Origin: a virus
Lineage: Duplodnaviria; Heunggongvirae; Uroviricota; Caudoviricetes
DNA length: 6,242 nt
Virus record (IMG/VR): IMGVR_UViG_2703718819_000019
Strand: one strand, 5' to 3'
This document shows, in pieces, positions 308 through 6,242 of this stretch. The notes beneath the pieces were generated by a model. It worked only from the letters and a program-made list of their open reading frames with translations, ran no database searches and was not told where the DNA came from. Numbering within the stretch: position 1 is the stretch's first letter; every line of letters begins with the position of its first letter. The position numbers were made by a program, and so were the translations under genes.

Positions 308-838
308 TTATTTATTCAGTCCGGCGTCCTGTTCAAAAGGCTCGACATAAAAACTTTCAGCGCCTTTATTCACCTTGATACCGGCAATGCCTTTCACAGC
401 ATCCGGCTCCGCCAGGACGGCTTCCTTGTTCACTTCCTCTTTCGTGCGGATGAAACGCTCAAGCCCCATACGGCGCAGCATTTCAATCACACCTTCCACA
501 TCACGGCTGACGCTGCATGATGGCGTTCCCAGCCGCCATGACACCGTTCCGGTGGTCAGATTGGCTGTTTTGGTTTTGCCGCCGTTCGTCAGCTCATCAC
601 GGTTGGTTTTGCACCAGTCCTGAATCCCTTTAAAAAGCACTTTGATTTGCTTTTTAAGATTTTCAATCTGCGGCGTATAACGGGCGGTGATTTCTGCCAC
701 TTCGTCATTCATCGCCGTTTCCAGGCGCAGCGCCTCTCGCTGAATATCGCCCAGGGTGCGGATATCGCGGCTGACTTCTTCGCGGGTCTGCGGTGCGGCC
801 TCGGCTACAGCCTTTAATTTTGTAACGCGTTTTGCCAT
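308..838 (-). CDS. gam: Gam-like host-nuclease inhibitor / Ku-like double-strand DNA end-binding protein
   Basis: 176-aa ORF. Segments such as LGDIQREALRLETAMNDEVAEIT, WCKTNRDELTNGGKTKTANLTTGTVSWR and RFIRTKEEVNKEAVLAEP are near-collinear with phage Mu Gam (about 174 aa) as I recall it. Shine-Dalgarno AAGGA lies 8 nt upstream of the ATG (836-838). TAA stop at 308-310. Confidence 0.9.
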   Translation of the reverse strand: MAKRVTKLKAVAEAAPQTREEVSRDIRTLGDIQREALRLETAMNDEVAEITARYTPQIENLKKQIKVLFKGIQDWCKTNRDELTNGGKTKTANLTTGTVSWRLGTPSCSVSRDVEGVIEMLRRMGLERFIRTKEEVNKEAVLAEPDAVKGIAGIKVNKGAESFYVEPFEQDAGLNK

Positions 839-849
839 TTTGTTTTTCC

Positions 850-1143
850 TTATTGCAGTGTGCCTGATGCTTTATGCACGCGGTGGCGTTTAATGATGGC
901 ATCCGCTCCAAAAGACTGTGCAGATGCCTGAAATTCCGCTGAGAGAAACTGAATAATTGCAGGACTGTGATACTGGAGAATACTTGCATAAACGTCACAG
1001 AGTGACGTCGGGCTGTTATCCGTATCACGTTCTGTTTTCACATCCACTCCAATCTTTTCATGCACTTCAACACAGTCATTGCCTGCCAACTTTTCGTCAT
1101 GCGAAACATGATTAAATTCAAAAATAACGCGTACTTTGCTCAT
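850..1143 (-). CDS. small hypothetical protein, paralog 2 of an MSKV..IFEF/Y family
   Basis: The track ORF starts at 1170, but the internal ATG at 1141-1143 (MSKVRVIFEFNHV...) has an upstream AGGGG Shine-Dalgarno-like motif and begins 5 nt after the stop of the preceding ORF. Its N-terminus matches the neighbouring ORF 1148..1420 (MSKVVRIIFEYKEHV) at protein level and about 24 of 27 nt. TAA stop at 850-852. Confidence 0.6.
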   Translation of the reverse strand: MSKVRVIFEFNHVSHDEKLAGNDCVEVHEKIGVDVKTERDTDNSPTSLCDVYASILQYHSPAIIQFLSAEFQASAQSFGADAIIKRHRVHKASGTLQ

Positions 1144-1147
1144 GGAA

Positions 1148-1420
1148 TTACCCCTGCTGATTAAATTCATTACCTTTAATAACCCCGGAACGCATGCTCA
1201 TATCTTTCATGAGCGCACTGGCTTTCATTGCCACAAGTTCAGCAAAGTCTCTGCTTTCCGCGAGCATAACCACCCCAAAAATCATGGCGGGTCCATCACC
1301 TTTCTGCTTTATCCTGGTTGAACGTATGTCCAGACTTACCCCCATGCGCACTGTTCCATCAGGGTTTTTATGGATAACGTGCTCCTTGTATTCGAAAATA
1401 ATGCGTACGACTTTACTCAT
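1148..1420 (-). CDS. small hypothetical protein, paralog 1 of an MSKV..IFEF/Y family
   Basis: 90-aa ORF. ATG at 1418-1420 preceded by GAGGA with a 7-nt spacer. The start overlaps the stop of the upstream ORF as ATGA (1417-1420), indicating translational coupling. Shared N-terminal motif with ORF 850..1143. Confidence 0.6.
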   Translation of the reverse strand: MSKVVRIIFEYKEHVIHKNPDGTVRMGVSLDIRSTRIKQKGDGPAMIFGVVMLAESRDFAELVAMKASALMKDMSMRSGVIKGNEFNQQG

Positions 1421-1698
1421 CCTCTGGTCCTCGTTCTGTTTGGATAACTGACCCGGCGTCTGACCTCACGGCAGAACCGAATCATGGCATTAAAGGCTTC
1501 TTCCTCCGTCACCGCTTCCGGTATCCCCGGAACCAGTAACTGCTCCTGTTCATCACGTCCATGACGCGCCATAACCTCAATCACATGCCGTACCGTGGCA
1601 GGCTTTCCGGCAACTATCGGCAATGCACCTTCCGGCAGGACGTAACCAAACTCAATAAGACCACTCGACCACGCCCATGCAATGAGATTTCGTTTCAC
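1417..1698 (-). CDS. small hypothetical protein (GTG start)
   Basis: 93-aa ORF. The start codon is GTG (reverse complement of 1696-1698), preceded by a strong Shine-Dalgarno GGGAGGTG (plus 1701-1710 reverse-complemented). It lies in the same operon, 1 nt after the stop of the upstream ORF. No recognisable domain by eye. Confidence 0.5.
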   Translation of the reverse strand: MKRNLIAWAWSSGLIEFGYVLPEGALPIVAGKPATVRHVIEVMARHGRDEQEQLLVPGIPEAVTEEEAFNAMIRFCREVRRRVSYPNRTRTRG

Positions 1699-1699
1699 C

Positions 1700-1954
1700 T
1701 CACACCTCCCAGCAAACCGTGCAGCCGCTGATGCGGGTGGCCTTCACACGGCGGCGCAGGCCGTTGGTCTGTATGGTGATTTCAATTTCACCGGTTCCCT
1801 GCACGTTGCCTACCGGCGGCGTGGTTTTCAGTGCAAAACGTTGCGGATAGCGCTTACTGCGTTCCAGTACCGCACCGGCAAGTTCGGTCAGACGGCGCGC
1901 GCTGTTCAGGGAGTCGAATAAATTCATTTTGTTACCGCAGGATTGCATATTCAT
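1700..1954 (-). CDS. small hypothetical protein
   Basis: The track ORF is 1700..1966. I prefer the in-frame ATG at 1952-1954 (MNMQSCGNK...) because GAGGTG sits 6 nt upstream, whereas the ATG at 1966 has no Shine-Dalgarno. The C-terminus carries a CxxC pair (CTVC). TGA stop at 1700-1702. Confidence 0.45.
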   Translation of the reverse strand: MNMQSCGNKMNLFDSLNSARRLTELAGAVLERSKRYPQRFALKTTPPVGNVQGTGEIEITIQTNGLRRRVKATRISGCTVCWEV

Positions 1955-1966
1955 ATAACACCTCAT

Positions 1967-2194
1967 TTAGCTGACTTGTTTCGCACCAACAGAACGGCAT
2001 ATTCCGCTGTAAACGTCTGTCGCACCTTCGCGATCAAGTCCGGCAGATATCACCATTCGTGTGCGGTCATTAAATTCAAAAAGTAAATCGCCACATTCTT
2101 TATTTTCGGCCAGTGAAATCACCTTCACGTTATCGAAATTAACCAGGTAAAAGCGTCCGTAAATATCAGGAATATTAAATACCGCCATAATCAC
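1967..2194 (-). CDS. small hypothetical protein in the position occupied by kil in phage Mu (immediately downstream of B)
   Basis: 75-aa ORF whose ATG overlaps the B stop as ATGA (2191-2194). It contains an internal LLFEFNDRTRMV segment related to the N-termini of ORFs 850..1143 and 1148..1420, and shares an identical 14-nt string with the former (2069-2082 vs 1111-1124). The Kil analogy is positional only; I cannot verify sequence similarity. Confidence 0.5.
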   Translation of the reverse strand: MIMAVFNIPDIYGRFYLVNFDNVKVISLAENKECGDLLFEFNDRTRMVISAGLDREGATDVYSGICRSVGAKQVS

Positions 2195-3123
2195 ACCTGT
2201 GAGAGTAATTCAGGGTTGGTATAAACCTCTTTAAAGGCCGCATTAATATGTTTTTCTGTCAGCGCCGCGCCTTCACCGCTGGCGGTGAGCCACGCCTGGT
2301 TAAGCGTATGTGTCAGAACGCGTAACGCTCCCGGCTTTTCAGCGATAGCCTGCATGACGGCCAGCTCGGCCTCACCACTGATCTCCCACGCCCTGGCAAT
2401 GGCCAGCACATCCGCCTTTTTGGCCTTGCGAAGTTGTTTTGTACGGGCAAGACGGCTGAACAGGCGCGATAAATCATCAAAGGCGCGGCGTCCACCTTTA
2501 AACAATCCGCGCGGGTTACCAATAAGCACCATCCCGATCCCCGTGGCGTCCTGAATTGCCCGGAGTTGCTCCAGACCGTCAATACCAAGATGATCCGCCT
2601 CATCCACAATCACCAGTCCACGCGTTCCCATCAGGCGACGGCGGATGGCGCGGGATAATGCCCCTTTGTTCGCGCGGGTGTAATCAATCCCCAGCGCATC
2701 GGCCAGCTCCAGCAGACACTCCGTGACGCTGGAGTGCGCGGGTGACAGGGTGATCATCCAGGTGTTTGGTTGCTCCTGGCAGTAATTACGGGCAGTGGCC
2801 GTTTTACCCACACCCGGTACGCCCACAATAACGTTAATACAGCCCATCAGACGAACCGCCTGAAACAGTGCGCGCAGCTCCTGGACTGTCTGCGTTTCCA
2901 CAAACTGCGGCGGTTCCGGCAGTGCGCTTTGTTTATTCCAGTTCTCATACCAGGAACGCAGGGAAGCAGCCACAGCAGCGTTATCGCCTTTATATTTTCC
3001 CTTACGGAAAGCCGATAATGTGCCGTCGGAAATTCCCGCCTCTCTGGCGATGGCATACTGCGTCAGTACGCCGCCATCAATAAGTTCATCAATGGTCTTG
3101 ATTACATCGTTAATATCAGTCAT
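2191..3123 (-). CDS. B: MuB-like AAA+ ATPase, transposition target-DNA activator
   Basis: 310-aa ORF. N-terminal HTH-like region (LTQYAIAREAGISDGTLSAF), Walker A GVPGVGKT, Walker B LVIVDEADHL, and overall collinearity with phage Mu B (312 aa) as recalled, including the PEPPQFVETQTV and KKADV..IA.AW segments. Shine-Dalgarno GAGAGG 8 nt upstream of the ATG at 3121-3123. Confidence 0.92.
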   Translation of the reverse strand: MTDINDVIKTIDELIDGGVLTQYAIAREAGISDGTLSAFRKGKYKGDNAAVAASLRSWYENWNKQSALPEPPQFVETQTVQELRALFQAVRLMGCINVIVGVPGVGKTATARNYCQEQPNTWMITLSPAHSSVTECLLELADALGIDYTRANKGALSRAIRRRLMGTRGLVIVDEADHLGIDGLEQLRAIQDATGIGMVLIGNPRGLFKGGRRAFDDLSRLFSRLARTKQLRKAKKADVLAIARAWEISGEAELAVMQAIAEKPGALRVLTHTLNQAWLTASGEGAALTEKHINAAFKEVYTNPELLSQV

Positions 3124-3194
3124 ATTATTAACCTCTCATTTGATACCTTGTTTAATCAAATAACCTGAGTCGCCGCTCGGGTTATTTTTTTATT

Positions 3195-5303
3195 TCAGGC
3201 CAGCGGGTCATTTTCTTTTAATTTCGCTTCCAGCAACTGCAATCCCCGCTGGAAATTACGCTCGTATTCTTCATCAGGTTCATCGTCAGCGACCGGTTGC
3301 TGAACGGTCACCGTATTACCCACAGGGCGGTATATGTTTTCCAGCCAGGGCCCCTGTGGCTTGTGCTCCAGCACGTTGACAACCTCATCCTCGGCATCAC
3401 GGATTTTTTCCTCTGCGCGTTTACGCATGCCTTTAAGGCGCTGCTGCTGTTTATGGTATTCCGCGCTGACCGGGAAGGCTTCGCGTTTATTGCCGTCCCA
3501 TACCGCCTCGCAAATCACACTGCCATCCAGGCGACGCACGGTAATTCGCTCAGCATCATGAATGTCATAGCTGATAAGCACCTTACGACCATGCTCGTCA
3601 CGCAGCTCGGGCGCGTAGTAAATATTATTCAGCCAGCGTATTTCACAGCGTCTTACAGGGCGCTCCACCATCGGCCGGAACATATCCCGCAGCTCAACAT
3701 CGGACAGCCATTCAATTTCCGTGTCCTCTTCTGCCAGGCGTTTTTTTCTGAACTCCGCCGGGCTGTAATGCTTCCCGTTCGGCTTCATGGGTAATTCATC
3801 GTGCGGCCGGTTGTTGTACCACTCAACACCATCACGAATGGCATCAATCAGTTCAGACCAGGACGGTAAATCACGCATCGCTGACTGCTGCCGGGCGTTC
3901 AGCCGCTTGCCCTGTTGCAGGGCAGTGAATGCCGAGCGTAAATCGCGGTTGGTTTTGCGTAACGTCTCGCGATCTGCACCTTTCCCGAAATAGGTGCGGT
4001 ATCTGCGGGCTATGCGCATCGGTAATGTGCGGTTAAGCCGTTCGATAATGCCCCGTCCCTGCGGATTACCGGCAATCCCGGTCGGGTGATTAATCCCCAG
4101 TCGCGGTAGTATCCCCACAATCTCCTTATCCAGGATGTCGGCGGTTTCCCCGGAGCCATTATCCGAGTAATACAGAAACGGTTTGCCGTGATGGCGAATG
4201 CCGTGCTGTATAGCACCGGCTACGGCGAAAACATTTTCAGCCAGGTCAAGGCTCCAGCCCACCACAAAGCGTGTACCGCCATCGATAACAAAGGTTACTT
4301 CCGGTGCAAATGGCCGCCCGTGAACCGGGTGCCTGCATTTCAGCTTCATGCCGTGACCGTCACCAATCCAGACATAGTTCACCGGCATTCTGGACCAGTC
4401 GCGGCGCGTGAATCCCTCAAGCTGGCGGTATTCACTGCCGGTCACCCGGCCTTTTTGTTTCACCACTTCCGGCAGTTTCTTCATTGCGCGGCGAATGGTG
4501 TCATAAGACGGCATGATATCGAGCATATAAGGCTCATCAGCGTGCCGGTGCTGCCATTCAGCGACAAAATCCTCGTAAGCCTCGGTCATTGGTCGGCCGT
4601 TTGACTGGCGATACTGCGCCAGAAATTCGGGCAGCCAGTTAATATCTTCGGCTTTTATTTCCTGGCGCTTACCCGGTGCCAGTAAAAGCAGGCGTTCAGC
4701 GGCGTTCTGCGCCTTGTTAAAGGCCGCAATCCAGCGTTTCAGCGTGATTTCACTTAACGCGCGGCTGTTTCCCTTTTTGGCGTTCGCCGTCTCAACCATT
4801 GCCACAATGCGCTCGTCCAGCTGCGAACGTGCCAGGTTGTCAACGATAAACCGGATAGCCTTCGCACAGCTGAAACCAGGTTGTTGCGCGACTTTCAGAA
4901 CTTCGCTGACGATCGCGATTCGTGCATCAGCCACCTGGCGCTGGTTTTCAGTCAGGGCATTGAGGCGTTCGACCATCAGTTGTGGTGATCCGCGATATGC
5001 CTCCACCGCATCAACCACGGCAGGTGAGCGTCTGGCCTTTGTCACCACCGGAGCCGGTGATTCATCGGCTTTTTGCGTCATCAGTTGCAGGGCGTAGCGT
5101 TCACGTACTGCCTGCTGAACAGTTAAAGGCAAAGCACCTATTTCACACTCTAAAACTTTCCCTTTTACCCCTGGTTTTAGCCGCGTTTTCCACGCCTCCC
5201 TCTTTGCTTTTTTGTGCAGACCTGCCAAAGAACTAGGTAGGTCACTGAATGAAATCAATTCAGTCATTGCAACCCACATATTTCCTCCGCGCACGTCGTT
5301 CAT
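3195..5303 (-). CDS. A: MuA-like DDE transposase
   Basis: 702-aa ORF. N-terminal winged-helix-like motif DLPSSLAGLHKKAKREAWKTR (the enhancer/operator-binding domain in MuA). Central DDE candidates in WIGDGHG, YYSDNGSGE and GRGIIERLNRT. Size and position match Mu A. The true start is probably the ATG at 5277-5279 (MWVAMTEL...), which has GGAGGA immediately upstream; the track start at 5303 has no Shine-Dalgarno. TGA stop at 3195-3197. Confidence 0.93.
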   Translation of the reverse strand: MNDVRGGNMWVAMTELISFSDLPSSLAGLHKKAKREAWKTRLKPGVKGKVLECEIGALPLTVQQAVRERYALQLMTQKADESPAPVVTKARRSPAVVDAVEAYRGSPQLMVERLNALTENQRQVADARIAIVSEVLKVAQQPGFSCAKAIRFIVDNLARSQLDERIVAMVETANAKKGNSRALSEITLKRWIAAFNKAQNAAERLLLLAPGKRQEIKAEDINWLPEFLAQYRQSNGRPMTEAYEDFVAEWQHRHADEPYMLDIMPSYDTIRRAMKKLPEVVKQKGRVTGSEYRQLEGFTRRDWSRMPVNYVWIGDGHGMKLKCRHPVHGRPFAPEVTFVIDGGTRFVVGWSLDLAENVFAVAGAIQHGIRHHGKPFLYYSDNGSGETADILDKEIVGILPRLGINHPTGIAGNPQGRGIIERLNRTLPMRIARRYRTYFGKGADRETLRKTNRDLRSAFTALQQGKRLNARQQSAMRDLPSWSELIDAIRDGVEWYNNRPHDELPMKPNGKHYSPAEFRKKRLAEEDTEIEWLSDVELRDMFRPMVERPVRRCEIRWLNNIYYAPELRDEHGRKVLISYDIHDAERITVRRLDGSVICEAVWDGNKREAFPVSAEYHKQQQRLKGMRKRAEEKIRDAEDEVVNVLEHKPQGPWLENIYRPVGNTVTVQQPVADDEPDEEYERNFQRGLQLLEAKLKENDPLA

Positions 5304-5505
5304 ATCTAGTAGGCCAAATAACTTGCGGCTCTACACCTATAGCCCTAGCAATAATCTTTTCACCTTTAGGGTAGGGAACTCGCAAAGCATTACCCAAAGT
5401 CCTAGGCTGCAAATTATTTTCCCTTGATAAACGTGACAAATTGGTATCGCGTTTTTCTAAGGCTGCCTTTATATCGGCGGAAGACCAATCTTCAATAAGA
5501 CTCAC
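5260..5505 (-). CDS. ner: Ner-like DNA-binding transcriptional regulator (Ner/Nlp family)
   Basis: 81-aa ORF. The PYPKGEKIIARAIGVEPQVIWPTRY segment matches the conserved core of Mu Ner and E. coli Nlp (..WPKGE.IIA.ALG..P..IWPSRY). GTG start at 5503-5505 preceded by AGGGGG with a 5-nt spacer. It is the first gene of the early operon and its 3' end overlaps the 5' end of A. Confidence 0.85.
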   Translation of the reverse strand: MSLIEDWSSADIKAALEKRDTNLSRLSRENNLQPRTLGNALRVPYPKGEKIIARAIGVEPQVIWPTRYERRARRKYVGCND

Positions 5506-5540
5506 AATGGCCCCCTGTGTACTTTCTATGGCAAACTTTA

Positions 5541-5579
5541 TTACTCATGTGTGCTACTCTATTGAGTTACTCACTAGTG
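5541..5579. repeat. three tandem 13-bp direct repeats (TTACTCATGTGTG / CTACTCTATTGAG / TTACTCACTAGTG), candidate operator or iteron-like sites
   Basis: Read directly from the sequence: the TACTC core recurs at 5542, 5555 and 5568, an exact 13-bp phase, and 8 of 13 positions are invariant (yTACTCwnnnGnG). A fourth TTACTC lies at 5644-5649. Confidence 0.5.
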
Positions 5580-5589
5580 TATGTTTGAT

Positions 5590-5618
5590 ATATTAGATAT
5601 TAACTAAGTAAATATCAA
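5590..5618 (-). promoter_or_regulatory. candidate early promoter (Pe-like) for the ner-A-B operon
   Basis: On the minus strand, -35 TTGATA (plus 5613-5618), a 17-nt spacer and -10 TAATAT (plus 5590-5595), about 80 nt upstream of the ner GTG. The -35 hexamer overlaps the IHF consensus match, so the two assignments compete. Confidence 0.35.
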
Positions 5619-5625
5619 CCGGTTA
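5613..5625 (+). promoter_or_regulatory. candidate IHF binding site
   Basis: TATCAACCGGTTA matches the IHF core consensus WATCAANNNNTTR at every defined position, with an AT-rich tract immediately 5'. In Mu, IHF binds within the operator region and stimulates Pe (established knowledge). Confidence 0.4.
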
Positions 5626-5735
5626 ATTTCAAATTCCTTAGATTTACTCGATATCTATTTGTTTTATATTAGATTATTTTTGAAATAAACCACAGAAGAG
5701 ATATGAACAAAAGTTAATATCAAATGGAGTTTGAT

Positions 5736-6242
5736 ATGATCCTTGACCAAGAATGGATCCTTGCCAGTGACTTGTTGGGGGTTGGAGGTCTTCCTTCATC
5801 TCTGGCTGGGCTTCATAAACGAGCAAAAAATGAAGGATGGGAAAAACGTTCGGTAACTACACCCGGTATCAGAGGGAGAGCATTTGCCTACCGTTTAAGC
5901 GACTTACCTGCACATGTAGTTTCCATCATTACAGGTAGTGCAGAAATAAAACACCAAGCCCCTAAAAAGAACGGTGGCAATAGCGAGTTGCTCGAACTCA
6001 TCGACACCTTGAACCAAGAAGAGCAAGAATTAGTTATTTACACCTTGAGAAGGAAAGGGGTAGAAAAATTGCTGGAATTCTGCAATCAAGAGAATCAAGA
6101 GCTGATCGCTTTAACAGGTATTCGACGCCTGGCAGCATTGAGCCTCAATAATTTATCAGATCAAAAGGTTAGAGAGATTTTCGAGGGAGATGAAACCAAG
6201 GATCATCATTTCAATCTAACCCATAAAGAAGCCAAAGCGTAA
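5736..6242 (+). CDS. c: Mu repressor c-like protein (Rep/CI of transposable phages)
   Basis: The track ORF is 5724..6242. GGAG at 5726-5729 sits 6 nt before the ATG at 5736, so 5736 is the more likely start. The N-terminal motif GLPSSLAGLHKRAKNEGWEKR parallels the transposase N-terminus (DLPSSLAGLHKKAKREAWKTR), the known Mu Rep/MuA shared DNA-binding domain. Divergent orientation from ner. TAA stop at 6240-6242. Confidence 0.8.
   Translation: MILDQEWILASDLLGVGGLPSSLAGLHKRAKNEGWEKRSVTTPGIRGRAFAYRLSDLPAHVVSIITGSAEIKHQAPKKNGGNSELLELIDTLNQEEQELVIYTLRRKGVEKLLEFCNQENQELIALTGIRRLAALSLNNLSDQKVREIFEGDETKDHHFNLTHKEAKA

What the first reader, a model, noticed from the sequence alone, without database searches (positions are those of the whole stretch)
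850..2194. Five-gene small-ORF cassette in the B-gam accessory slot of a Mu-like prophage
Five translationally coupled ORFs of 75-97 aa lie between the conserved B and gam genes. None matches any protein family I can recognise by eye. In Mu this slot is the semi-essential early region (kil and neighbours), which is dispensable for transposition, highly variable among Mu-like phages and acts on host processes. Being expressed immediately on induction from Pe, these are plausible host-takeover, anti-restriction or anti-defence factors, or toxic Kil-like proteins. This is the most likely location in the window for an undescribed function.
Basis: partly seen in the sequence, partly recalled or inferred. 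Interest (0 to 1): 0.7.

Follow-up and report, generated by a model that had tools for sequence, protein, structure and literature searches.

The report
Mu-like prophage early accessory genes
Five tightly packed small genes between the transposition gene B and gam of an E. coli Mu-like prophage are real, conserved early genes (a Kil toxin homologue, a small protein that travels with Gam, two gp7-like paralogues and one narrow-range orphan); all are already catalogued as phage protein families, so the locus is ordinary, though four of the five functions remain unknown.

Summary
Window 850-2194 (minus strand) carries five same-strand ORFs spaced by -4 to +12 nt between B and gam, with no internal promoter or terminator. 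All five are under purifying selection (dN/dS 0.11-0.51). The slot is present in 232 of 5426 complete E. coli genomes, in an Sp18-type Mu-like prophage.

"No recognisable family" is wrong. Each ORF hits a PHROG family at E 1e-38 to 1e-60.
- ORF2 is a true Mu Kil homologue (hhalign 97%, E 5e-11).
- ORF3 belongs to a family of more than 1000 clusters labelled "host nuclease inhibitor". It has no Gam domain. It matches the C-terminal extension of the long Gam of D3112-like phages. In 50 of 54 diverse viral contigs a homologue lies near Gam or DUF3164.
- ORF4 and ORF5 are diverged paralogues, probably of the Mu gp7 family.
- ORF1 is a very narrow enterobacterial family.

Verdict: this is the ordinary semi-essential early region of a known prophage type. 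Nothing supports anti-defence. The one modest new lead is the link between ORF3 and Gam/DUF3164. Interest 0.3.

The parts
1967..2188 (-). w1: 73-aa small protein (75 aa if the GTG at 2194 is used). First gene after B. Narrow enterobacterial family (phrog_3375). Function unknown.
   Evidence: PHROG E 9e-47. A phmmer search of 1.84 billion representatives found only about 4 full-length clusters. Alignment A5 has 20 invariant columns. dN/dS 0.15-0.25. No Pfam, NCBIfam, PADLOC or PDB hit.
1700..1954 (-). w2: Kil homologue, 84 aa (or 75 aa from the ATG at 1927).
   Evidence: phrog_2679 'Kil' E 5e-45, with a cross-hit to Mu Kil's phrog_2743. hhalign of w2-type against Mu-type Kil gives 97.1%, E 4.9e-11 over 64 columns. 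Invariant R, C and W and a C-terminal GC-V-W motif are shared with Mu Kil. PGAP names it 'Kil protein family'. A Salmonella homologue at 74% identity carries PF26843.
1417..1698 (-). w3: 93-aa member of a widespread small-protein family associated with Gam/DUF3164. Mis-labelled 'host nuclease inhibitor'.
1148..1420 (-). w4: 90-aa protein (phrog_4107), a diverged paralogue of w5. Found here only in E. coli.
   Evidence: PHROG E 6e-60. hhalign of the w4 family against the w5 family gives 85.7%, E 5.5e-6 over 71 columns. All its relatives are from E. coli. It is absent from the CI5 and STEC299 variants. dN/dS 0.29.
850..1143 (-). w5: 97-aa protein (phrog_2230), probably of the Mu gp7 family. The model shows a long beta-hairpin followed by two helices.
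2191..3123 (-). Mu B-type transposition ATPase (upstream flank).
   Evidence: PF09077 E 7e-25 and AAA_22 E 4e-18. phrog_296 E 2e-108.
308..838 (-). Gam (Ku-like DNA-end-binding protein; downstream flank).
   Evidence: PF07352 E 5.6e-42. phrog_491 E 1e-69.
3195..5303 (-). Mu A-type transposase, same operon.
   Evidence: A 702-aa ORF. PGAP names it 'Mu transposase C-terminal domain-containing protein'.
5260..5505 (-). ner-like regulator, first gene of the early operon. A promoter-like site lies at 5618-5590.
   Evidence: PF13693 HTH_35 E 7e-27. The only minus-strand sigma-70-like site in the window is at 5618-5590.

Best explanation
Window 850-2194 is the promoter-proximal part of the semi-essential early region of an Sp18-type Mu-like prophage of E. 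coli. It holds five genuine protein-coding genes. They appear to be co-transcribed with ner-A-B-gam from the early promoter and translationally coupled.

Shown here:
- Gene 2 is a homologue of Mu Kil.
- Gene 3 belongs to a large family of ~90-aa proteins. They sit next to Gam or DUF3164 in Mu-like elements and are fused to the C-terminus of Gam in D3112-like Pseudomonas phages.
- Genes 4 and 5 are diverged tandem paralogues, probably of the Mu gp7 family.
- Gene 1 is a narrow enterobacterial orphan family.
- Sister prophages gain or lose gene 3, gene 4 and a gp8-like gene, so the slot is modular.

Inferred, not shown:
- On induction, Kil perturbs host envelope growth and shape. Mu kil expression gives spherical cells and kills the host.
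- Gene 3 acts as an accessory partner of the Gam/DUF3164 module, for example by contacting a host factor at DNA ends.
- Genes 1, 4 and 5 are dispensable host-modulating accessory proteins.

The five genes are a collection of independent early accessory genes, not one multi-component system.
For: - Anatomy and coupling. No internal minus-strand promoter or terminator and no Rfam family.
- Coding reality: dN/dS 0.11-0.51.
- Distribution: 232 of 5426 complete E. coli genomes; best match 99.6% (strain AST198); O157:H7 strains 98.7%. PGAP annotates the same five CDS. Sp18 of O157 Sakai is described as an intact Mu-like prophage (PMC2669165).
- Kil. Phenotype of Mu kil: PMC3961180 citing Waggoner 1989.
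- w3: the D3112 Gam is phrog_491 (residues 4-156) plus phrog_1518 (173-264). The family has 1031 clusters. Of 54 diverse viral contigs, 50 carry Gam (19) or DUF3164 (31). The gap is at most 100 nt in 24 and at most 600 nt in 48. w3 is upstream in 37 and downstream in 13. Salmonella and Pseudomonas contexts agree.
- w4/w5/gp7.
- Modularity.
- Mosaic divergence: dS against LC727895 is 0.085 for B, 0.77 for w1, 0.50 for Kil, 0.37 for w4 and 0.066 for w5.
Against: - No function was demonstrated for any of the five. Kil activity is inferred from about 23% identity profile homology.
- The proximity of w3 to Gam/DUF3164 could partly reflect the compactness of Mu-like early operons. In this window, w4 and w5 lie between w3 and gam.
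- E. coli variants keep Gam while lacking w3, so w3 is not obligatory for Gam.
- The gp7 relationship fails direct hhalign (E 0.5 and 0.056). It rests on a weak PHROG hit and on bridging sequences.
- Expression from the early promoter is inferred from gene order and a consensus match only.
Confidence: 0.85

Rival explanations
1. Anti-defence or anti-restriction cassette. One or more of the five proteins would inhibit host restriction-modification, RecBCD-like nucleases or abortive-infection systems immediately after induction or infection.
For: The genes occupy an early, promoter-proximal position. The proteins are small. The slot is modular and recombining. w3 is linked to the nuclease-blocking Gam. 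Nothing or 20-24 assigns another function.
Against: - There is no similarity to any characterised inhibitor by sequence or fold.
- None has the strongly acidic DNA-mimic composition of Ocr or ArdA (net charge -3 to +6.5).
- Kil and w3 are broadly conserved rather than rapidly turning over.
- No anti-defence profile library was available, so this rival is untested rather than refuted.
Confidence: 0.2
2. Kil-w3 is a toxin-antidote pair. w3, translated immediately after Kil (1-nt gap here), would temper Kil toxicity in the lysogen or early after induction.
For: Kil lies directly upstream of w3 (within 350 nt, often overlapping) in 29 of 54 diverse viral contigs, and also in Citrobacter, Edwardsiella and Salmonella prophages.
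Against: - E. coli variants CI5, STEC1587 and LC727895 keep Kil but lack w3.
- Mu itself has Kil without w3.
- Pseudomonas-type elements have w3 after, or fused to, Gam/DUF3164, with no detectable Kil next to it.
Confidence: 0.1
3. Some of the ORFs are not genes but chance or decaying reading frames in a defective prophage.
For: The ORFs are short. There are no Pfam or NCBIfam hits. w1 has very few relatives.
Against: dN/dS is below 1 for all five. PHROG matches are full-length. Start and stop spacing is conserved. The genes are conserved in more than 200 genomes and in other genera. AF2 gives confident folds for w3 and w5.
Confidence: 0.03

Closest known systems
Bacteriophage Mu semi-essential early region (kil, gp6, gp7, gp8, gp9 between B and gam; NC_000929 Mup05-Mup09)
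   Same: - Same position, orientation and operon: ner-A-B-[five small genes]-gam.
- A Kil homologue is present.
- w4 and w5 are probably gp7 family.
- A gp8 homologue occurs in sister prophages.
   Different: - There is no DNA-level similarity in the slot. Only gam and B align, at about 66%.
- Kil is the second gene, not the first.
- There are no counterparts of Mu gp6 (Cys-rich) or gp9 (HTH).
- w1 and w3 have no Mu counterpart.
Sp18 Mu-like prophage of E. coli O157:H7 Sakai and relatives (PGAP: five hypothetical proteins, e.g. WP_000257929, WP_001057199, WP_000739863, WP_000049432, WP_000049304)
   Same: Same five genes in the same order, at 98.7% nucleotide identity in O157:H7 strains.
   Different: The window is not identical to any O157 copy. 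The best match is strain AST198 at 99.6%. None of the five proteins has a published function. No paper in the library cites their accession numbers.
Long Gam of Pseudomonas transposable phages (D3112 gam, 266 aa; Casadabanvirus)
   Same: Its C-terminal ~90 residues are homologous to w3 (43-50% identity; phrog_1518 E 3.5e-38).
   Different: In the window, w3 is a separate gene. It lies two genes upstream of a short (176 aa) Gam and has no Gam domain.
MbtH-like proteins (YbdZ, PF03621)
   Different: Identity is 9-14%. There is no PF03621 hit in any of 40 family members even at E up to 1. The context is unrelated, and w3 has an extra strand and a long C-terminal helix. This is a fold resemblance only.
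Lambda Kil and Rac Kil
   Same: They share the name and a general role as an early host-toxic peptide.
   Different: They are unrelated in sequence to Mu Kil. They inhibit FtsZ and cause filamentation, whereas Mu kil gives spherical cells (PMC3961180). The PHROG label 'septation inhibition' should therefore not be taken at face value for w2.

Membership tests
Mu Kil family (phrog_2743/2679; Pfam PF26843 Kil_protein), for w2 | Sequence or profile homology to Mu Kil | tested here: met
   hhalign of the w2-type alignment against the Mu-type alignment gives 97.1% probability, E 4.9e-11 over 64 of 75 columns. PHROG cross-hits are reciprocal. blastp gives 33% identity over 39 aa.
Mu Kil family, for w2 | Conserved residues shared across the family (R-P motif, C-terminal G-C-x-V/I-x-W) | tested here: met
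   Alignment A6 of 14 sequences, including Mu and SfMu Kil: R30, C69 and W73 are invariant; G18, P38, R59 and V61 are at least 90% conserved.
Mu Kil family, for w2 | Location just downstream of B in the early operon | tested here: met
   It is the second gene after B here. It is first or second in Mu, Citrobacter, Edwardsiella, Salmonella and many viral contigs.
Mu Kil family, for w2 | Match to Pfam PF26843 above threshold | tested here: inconclusive
   The local Pfam copy gave no hit for w2, nor for the Salmonella homologue that carries a precomputed PF26843 hit. The local copy evidently lacks this model.
Mu Kil family, for w2 | Host killing and cell rounding on expression | not testable with these tools
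   The phenotype is known only for Mu kil (PMC3961180).
Gam / 'host nuclease inhibitor' (PF07352), for w3 | Presence of the Gam (Ku-like) domain | tested here: not met
   No PF07352 hit for w3 or for 40 family members. w3 aligns only to residues 173-264 of D3112 Gam, outside the Gam domain at 4-156. The name is annotation transfer from the fusion.
Gam / 'host nuclease inhibitor', for w3 | Protection of linear DNA from host exonucleases | not testable with these tools
Gam/DUF3164-associated small protein (phrog_1518), for w3 | Conserved sequence core (A7, G13, I15, G24, G31, R45, VPG-PEA motif) | tested here: met
   Alignments A1 and A2. PHROG E 8.5e-43.
Gam/DUF3164-associated small protein (phrog_1518), for w3 | Genomic linkage to Gam or DUF3164 in a Mu-like element | tested here: met
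   Gam lies 579 nt downstream in the window. Of 54 diverse viral contigs, 50 have Gam or DUF3164, within 600 nt in 48. There is a fusion in D3112.
MbtH-like (PF03621), for w3 | MbtH sequence signature / Pfam match | tested here: not met
MbtH-like (PF03621), for w3 | MbtH fold (three-stranded antiparallel sheet plus helix) | tested here: inconclusive
Mu gp7 family (phrog_10252/2230), for w4 and w5 | Profile homology to Mu gp7 | tested here: inconclusive
   Mu gp7 hits phrog_2230 full-length at E 0.009. Bridging 85-aa ORFs hit the gp7, w4 and w5 HMMs. Direct hhalign gives E 0.5 (w5) and 0.056 (w4).
Mu gp7 family, for w4 and w5 | w4 and w5 are homologous to each other | tested here: met
   hhalign 85.7% probability, E 5.5e-6 over 71 columns. 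They share an N-terminal MSKV-R-IFE motif.
Anti-restriction DNA mimics (Ocr/ArdA type), for all five | Strongly acidic, DNA-mimicking composition | tested here: not met
   pI 4.85 (w1), 10.2 (w2), 9.6 (w3), 9.7 (w4) and 6.0 (w5). Net charge runs from -3 to +6.5.
Known anti-phage defence systems (PADLOC), for all five | Match to a defence-system profile | tested here: not met
   No hit at E up to 1.

The most novel reading that the evidence does not exclude
The w3 family (phrog_1518; ~90 aa; more than 1000 clusters) would be an unrecognised functional partner of the Ku-like Gam protein in transposable phages. It would be a small adaptor that docks on, or is fused to, Gam and engages a host enzyme at DNA ends, such as a nuclease, ligase or defence nuclease. 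DUF3164, which occupies the same slot as Gam in a mutually exclusive way and keeps the same w3 neighbour, would be a non-homologous functional replacement of Gam.
Probability: 0.25. Interest if true: 0.6.

Novelty: new member of a known kind. Interest (0 to 1): 0.3.

Why it matters
The Mu semi-essential early region has been a known unknown for about 40 years, and most of its genes have no assigned function (PMC3820752). This window adds no new kind of element.

The comparison does yield three usable points:
- It maps which early accessory genes are core (Kil, w3) and which are lineage-specific (w1, w4, w5, gp8-like) in enterobacterial Mu-like prophages. These prophages are common in Shiga-toxin-producing E. 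coli.
- It corrects a propagated annotation. "Host nuclease inhibitor protein" is applied to a family that has no Gam domain.
- It gives a testable hypothesis: this family works with Gam/DUF3164, and DUF3164 substitutes for Gam.

If that hypothesis is confirmed, it would extend understanding of how transposable phages handle DNA ends and host nucleases.

Tried and rejected
- Pfam, NCBIfam and PADLOC scans of all five proteins: nothing. Member-by-member Pfam scans of the w1, w3 and w5 families gave only scattered E>0.03 noise. For w5, 11 of 67 members touch PF23794 (mycobacteriophage Gp84-like), best E 0.033, which is not significant.
- PDB sequence searches, single and profile: nothing significant. 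The w3 profile gave a run of ClpB/ClpC/Hsp104 hits at E 0.02-1.5. I attribute these to the LLVPGVPEA motif resembling the Walker-A region and reject them.
- The first homologue search with w3 alone found only relatives above 90% identity. Seeding with phage homologues was needed.
- w1 phmmer hits to three long repeat proteins (P0251, P0253, P0254) are repeat-inflated matches. In P0251 the match is to a 'GNxVIEFSDGS' hairpin repeat. They are not homologues.
- tblastn of w1, w4 and w5 against 50,697 phage genomes found only the two Stx-phage records that carry an inserted Mu-like element.
- BFVD Foldseek for w3: no hit below E 0.07. The afdb50 library was unavailable.
- Literature: no paper mentions the five RefSeq accessions. 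DUF3164 is uncharacterised. Nothing was found on the long-Gam C-terminal domain.
- Toxin-antidote reading of Kil-w3: rejected because natural variants keep Kil without w3.
Full report
**1. What is in the window**

The minus strand carries a complete Mu-type early operon.
- A ner-like HTH gene lies at 5260-5505 (PF13693).
- A 702-aa Mu A-type transposase lies at 3195-5303.
- A Mu B-type ATPase lies at 2191-3123 (PF09077 plus AAA_22).
- Five small ORFs follow.
- Gam lies at 308-838 (PF07352, E 5.6e-42).

A divergent repressor-like ORF at 5724-6242 runs off the window on the plus strand. The only minus-strand sigma-70-like site is at 5618-5590, upstream of ner. No promoter-like or terminator-like site on the minus strand, and no Rfam family, falls inside 850-2194.

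**2. The observation**

Reading the minus strand gives five ORFs.
- w1: 1967-2188, 73 aa. The ATG lies 2 nt after the B stop.
- w2: 1700-1954, 84 aa, with a GAGGTG Shine-Dalgarno. Homologues start at the MNLFDSL methionine, which would be 1927 (75 aa).
- w3: 1417-1698, 93 aa, GTG start 1 nt after the w2 stop.
- w4: 1148-1420, 90 aa, with an ATGA overlap with w3.
- w5: 850-1143, 97 aa, 4 nt after w4. gam starts 11 nt later.

All five are under purifying selection. dN/dS is 0.11-0.51 against homologues in LC727895, Citrobacter braakii and Salmonella, compared with 0.02-0.12 for B and Gam.

**3. Where it comes from**

The B-to-gam interval matches 233 of 5426 complete E. coli genomes at about 90% identity or more. 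O157:H7 and other STEC strains match at 98.7%. The slot alone is found in 232 genomes, with a best match of 99.6% in strain AST198.

PGAP annotates the same five CDS as hypothetical proteins. One is sometimes named "Kil protein family" and one "host nuclease inhibitor protein". This is the prophage type known as Sp18 in O157 Sakai, which is described as an intact Mu-like prophage (PMC2669165). Only gam and part of B align with Mu itself at the DNA level, at about 66%.

**4. Family assignments**

Pfam, NCBIfam and PADLOC give nothing. PHROGs gives full-length hits for all five:

| ORF | PHROG family | PHROG label | E-value |
|---|---|---|---|
| w1 | phrog_3375 | unknown | 9e-47 |
| w2 | phrog_2679 | Kil | 5e-45 |
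| w3 | phrog_1518 | host nuclease inhibitor | 8.5e-43 |
| w4 | phrog_4107 | unknown | 6e-60 |
| w5 | phrog_2230 | unknown | 7e-38 |

The statement that none matches a family is therefore incorrect. Four of the five still have no known function.

**5. w2 is Kil**

- Mu Kil belongs to phrog_2743 and cross-hits phrog_2679 (E 9e-5). w2 cross-hits phrog_2743 (E 1.5e-3).
- A 14-sequence alignment that includes Mu and SfMu Kil and intermediates from other genera is collinear. It has invariant R30, C69 and W73 and a C-terminal GC-V/I-W motif.
- hhalign between the w2-type and Mu-type sub-alignments gives 97.1% probability and E 4.9e-11 over 64 columns.
- A Salmonella homologue at 74% identity carries the precomputed Pfam PF26843 Kil_protein hit. 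The local Pfam copy lacks that model.

Mu kil expression makes E. coli spherical, unlike the FtsZ-directed lambda and Rac Kil peptides (PMC3961180). The PHROG wording "septation inhibition" is therefore doubtful for this family.

**6. w3 is not Gam but travels with it**

tblastn finds w3 relatives in 75 phage records, mostly Pseudomonas transposable phages.

In D3112 the match lies inside the 266-aa gam gene. That protein is phrog_491 (Gam, residues 4-156) plus phrog_1518 (residues 173-264). The label "host nuclease inhibitor" on standalone ~90-aa proteins is best explained as transfer from this fusion. No Gam domain is detectable in w3 or in 40 relatives.

A seeded profile search finds 1031 clusters. 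Among the 120 best listed, most are 85-93 aa, from Pseudomonas, Salmonella, Burkholderia, Klebsiella and other genera, with no Pfam domain.

I fetched 80 viral contigs with the family profile and classified their ORFs with HMMs that I built for MuB, Kil, Gam, DUF3164 and the slot proteins. Among the 54 loci that are only 40-59% identical to w3:
- 47 have MuB.
- 50 have Gam (19) or DUF3164 (31), and none has both.
- The gap between w3 and that partner is at most 100 nt in 24 and at most 600 nt in 48.
- w3 is upstream of the partner in 37 and downstream in 13.

Salmonella prophages show B-w1-gp8like-Kil-w3-w5like followed by either Gam or DUF3164. A Pseudomonas element has DUF3164 immediately followed by w3. 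Proximity is retained despite the change of side, and there is a fusion. Together these argue for a functional link.

There are caveats. Early operons are compact. In this window two genes separate w3 from gam. Some E. coli variants have Gam without w3.

**7. Structure of w3**

With a 40-sequence alignment, AlphaFold2 gives pLDDT 88.3 and pTM 0.76. The model has three strands, a helix, a short strand, the invariant VPG-PEA loop and a long C-terminal helix.

**8. w4, w5 and Mu gp7**

- w4 and w5 share an N-terminal MSKV-R-IFE motif. Their family profiles align at 85.7% probability, E 5.5e-6, over 71 columns. They are diverged tandem paralogues.
- A profile search found 169 clusters. The 120 listed are E. 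coli or Salmonella hypothetical proteins or unnamed metagenome sequences. w4-type proteins were seen only in E. coli.
- Mu gp7 hits w5's PHROG full-length at E 0.009.
- 85-aa ORFs in three viral contigs, lying between Kil and w3, hit the gp7, w4 and w5 HMMs.
- Direct hhalign to the shallow gp7 alignment fails. gp7 membership is therefore probable but not established.

**9. w1**

phmmer against 1.84 billion representatives finds only about four full-length clusters of 74-84 aa, plus fragments and spurious repeat proteins. Relatives occur in Citrobacter and Salmonella Mu-like prophages, always directly after B. Twenty columns are invariant in a 7-sequence alignment.

**10. Modularity**

| Prophage | Gene order between B and gam |
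|---|---|
| Majority E. coli type (this window) | w1-Kil-w3-w4-w5 |
| E. coli CI5 | w1-Kil-w5 |
| E. coli STEC299 | w1-gp8like-Kil-w3-w5 |
| E. coli STEC1587 and LC727895 | w1-gp8like-Kil-w4-w5 |
| Mu | kil-gp6-gp7-gp8-gp9 |

Synonymous divergence between the window and LC727895 jumps from 0.085 in B to 0.77 in w1, 0.50 in Kil and 0.37 in w4, then falls to 0.066 in w5. This indicates recombination inside the slot.

**11. Interpretation**

The locus is the ordinary semi-essential early region of a common E. coli Mu-like prophage. Three points are shown:
- The five genes are real and tightly packed.
- They belong to the Kil, phrog_1518, gp7-like and orphan families.
- The slot is modular.

Three points are inferred:
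- Kil toxicity.
- A Gam/DUF3164-linked role for w3.
- Host-modulating roles for w1, w4 and w5.

The anti-defence idea is neither supported nor excluded. No protein is a strongly acidic mimic, and no similarity to any characterised protein was found. A Kil-w3 toxin-antidote reading is contradicted by natural variants that keep Kil without w3.

**12. Novelty and score**

All five proteins are already in public family catalogues and RefSeq. The prophage type is well known, and the "unknown function" status of Mu early genes is long established (PMC3820752; PMC4553209).

Three things are new here:
- The comparative map of core and variable genes in the slot.
- The correction of the "host nuclease inhibitor" label.
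- The linkage of w3 to Gam/DUF3164, with Gam and DUF3164 as alternatives.

I rate it a new member of a known kind, with interest 0.3.

Noticed in passing
L010-L105 (e.g. L022 5577-6215 vs L023 5576-6106); window gam 308-838: In Mu-like elements, Gam (PF07352) and DUF3164 (PF11363) occupy the same position after the small early genes. They were never found together: 19 loci had Gam only, 31 had DUF3164 only and 0 had both, among 54 diverse loci. Near-identical Salmonella prophages differ only in this gene. DUF3164 may be a non-homologous replacement of Gam. No paper characterises it.
   Followed up: partly
w3 family (window 1417-1698; P0009, P0050 and others): NCBI and PHROG name standalone ~90-aa proteins 'host nuclease inhibitor protein', although they lack any Gam domain. 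The name appears to have been transferred from the Gam-w3 fusion of D3112-like phages.
   Followed up: yes
window 5724-6242 (+) and 3195-5303 (-): The N-termini of the repressor-like ORF and the transposase share a near-identical stretch (LPSSLAGLHKRAKNEGW and LPSSLAGLHKKAKREAW). This is as expected for Mu, where repressor and MuA share an operator/enhancer-binding domain. The repressor ORF runs off the window end.
   Followed up: no
window 3158-3187: A 13-bp-stem palindromic hairpin followed by a T-run lies in the 71-nt gap between the A stop (3195) and the B start (3123). It was scored as terminator-like on the plus (antisense) strand. Being palindromic, it would also fold in the early transcript.
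   Followed up: no
window 5400-5850: GC content drops to 33% in the c-ner intergenic (operator) region, against 50-58% in A and B. GC is also lower (41-44%) in w1, w4 and w5 than in w2 and w3 (52-57%), which is consistent with a mosaic origin of the slot.
   Followed up: no
window 850-2194 vs L006 (LC727895): Synonymous divergence changes abruptly along the slot: B 0.085, w1 0.77, Kil 0.50, w4 0.37, w5 0.066, gam 0.21. This indicates recombination breakpoints between neighbouring small genes.
   Followed up: partly
L004 (D3112) 4089-4577, orf15: D3112 carries a second, weak w3-like domain (E 5e-5) at the N-terminus of the 162-aa orf15, two genes after the Gam-w3 fusion. Viral contigs L062 and L105 also have two w3 copies.
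   Followed up: no
L108 (E. coli STEC1587) 2146-2778: The gp8-like and Kil reading frames form a single 210-aa ORF in this strain. PGAP annotates only the Kil part. This may be an in-frame fusion or a decayed gp8-like gene.
   Followed up: no
PHROG phrog_2679 / phrog_2743 labels: PHROG describes the Mu Kil families as 'Kil protein for bacterial septation inhibition'. The literature reports spherical cells, an elongation defect, for Mu kil, and FtsZ inhibition only for the unrelated lambda and Rac Kil (PMC3961180).
   Followed up: partly
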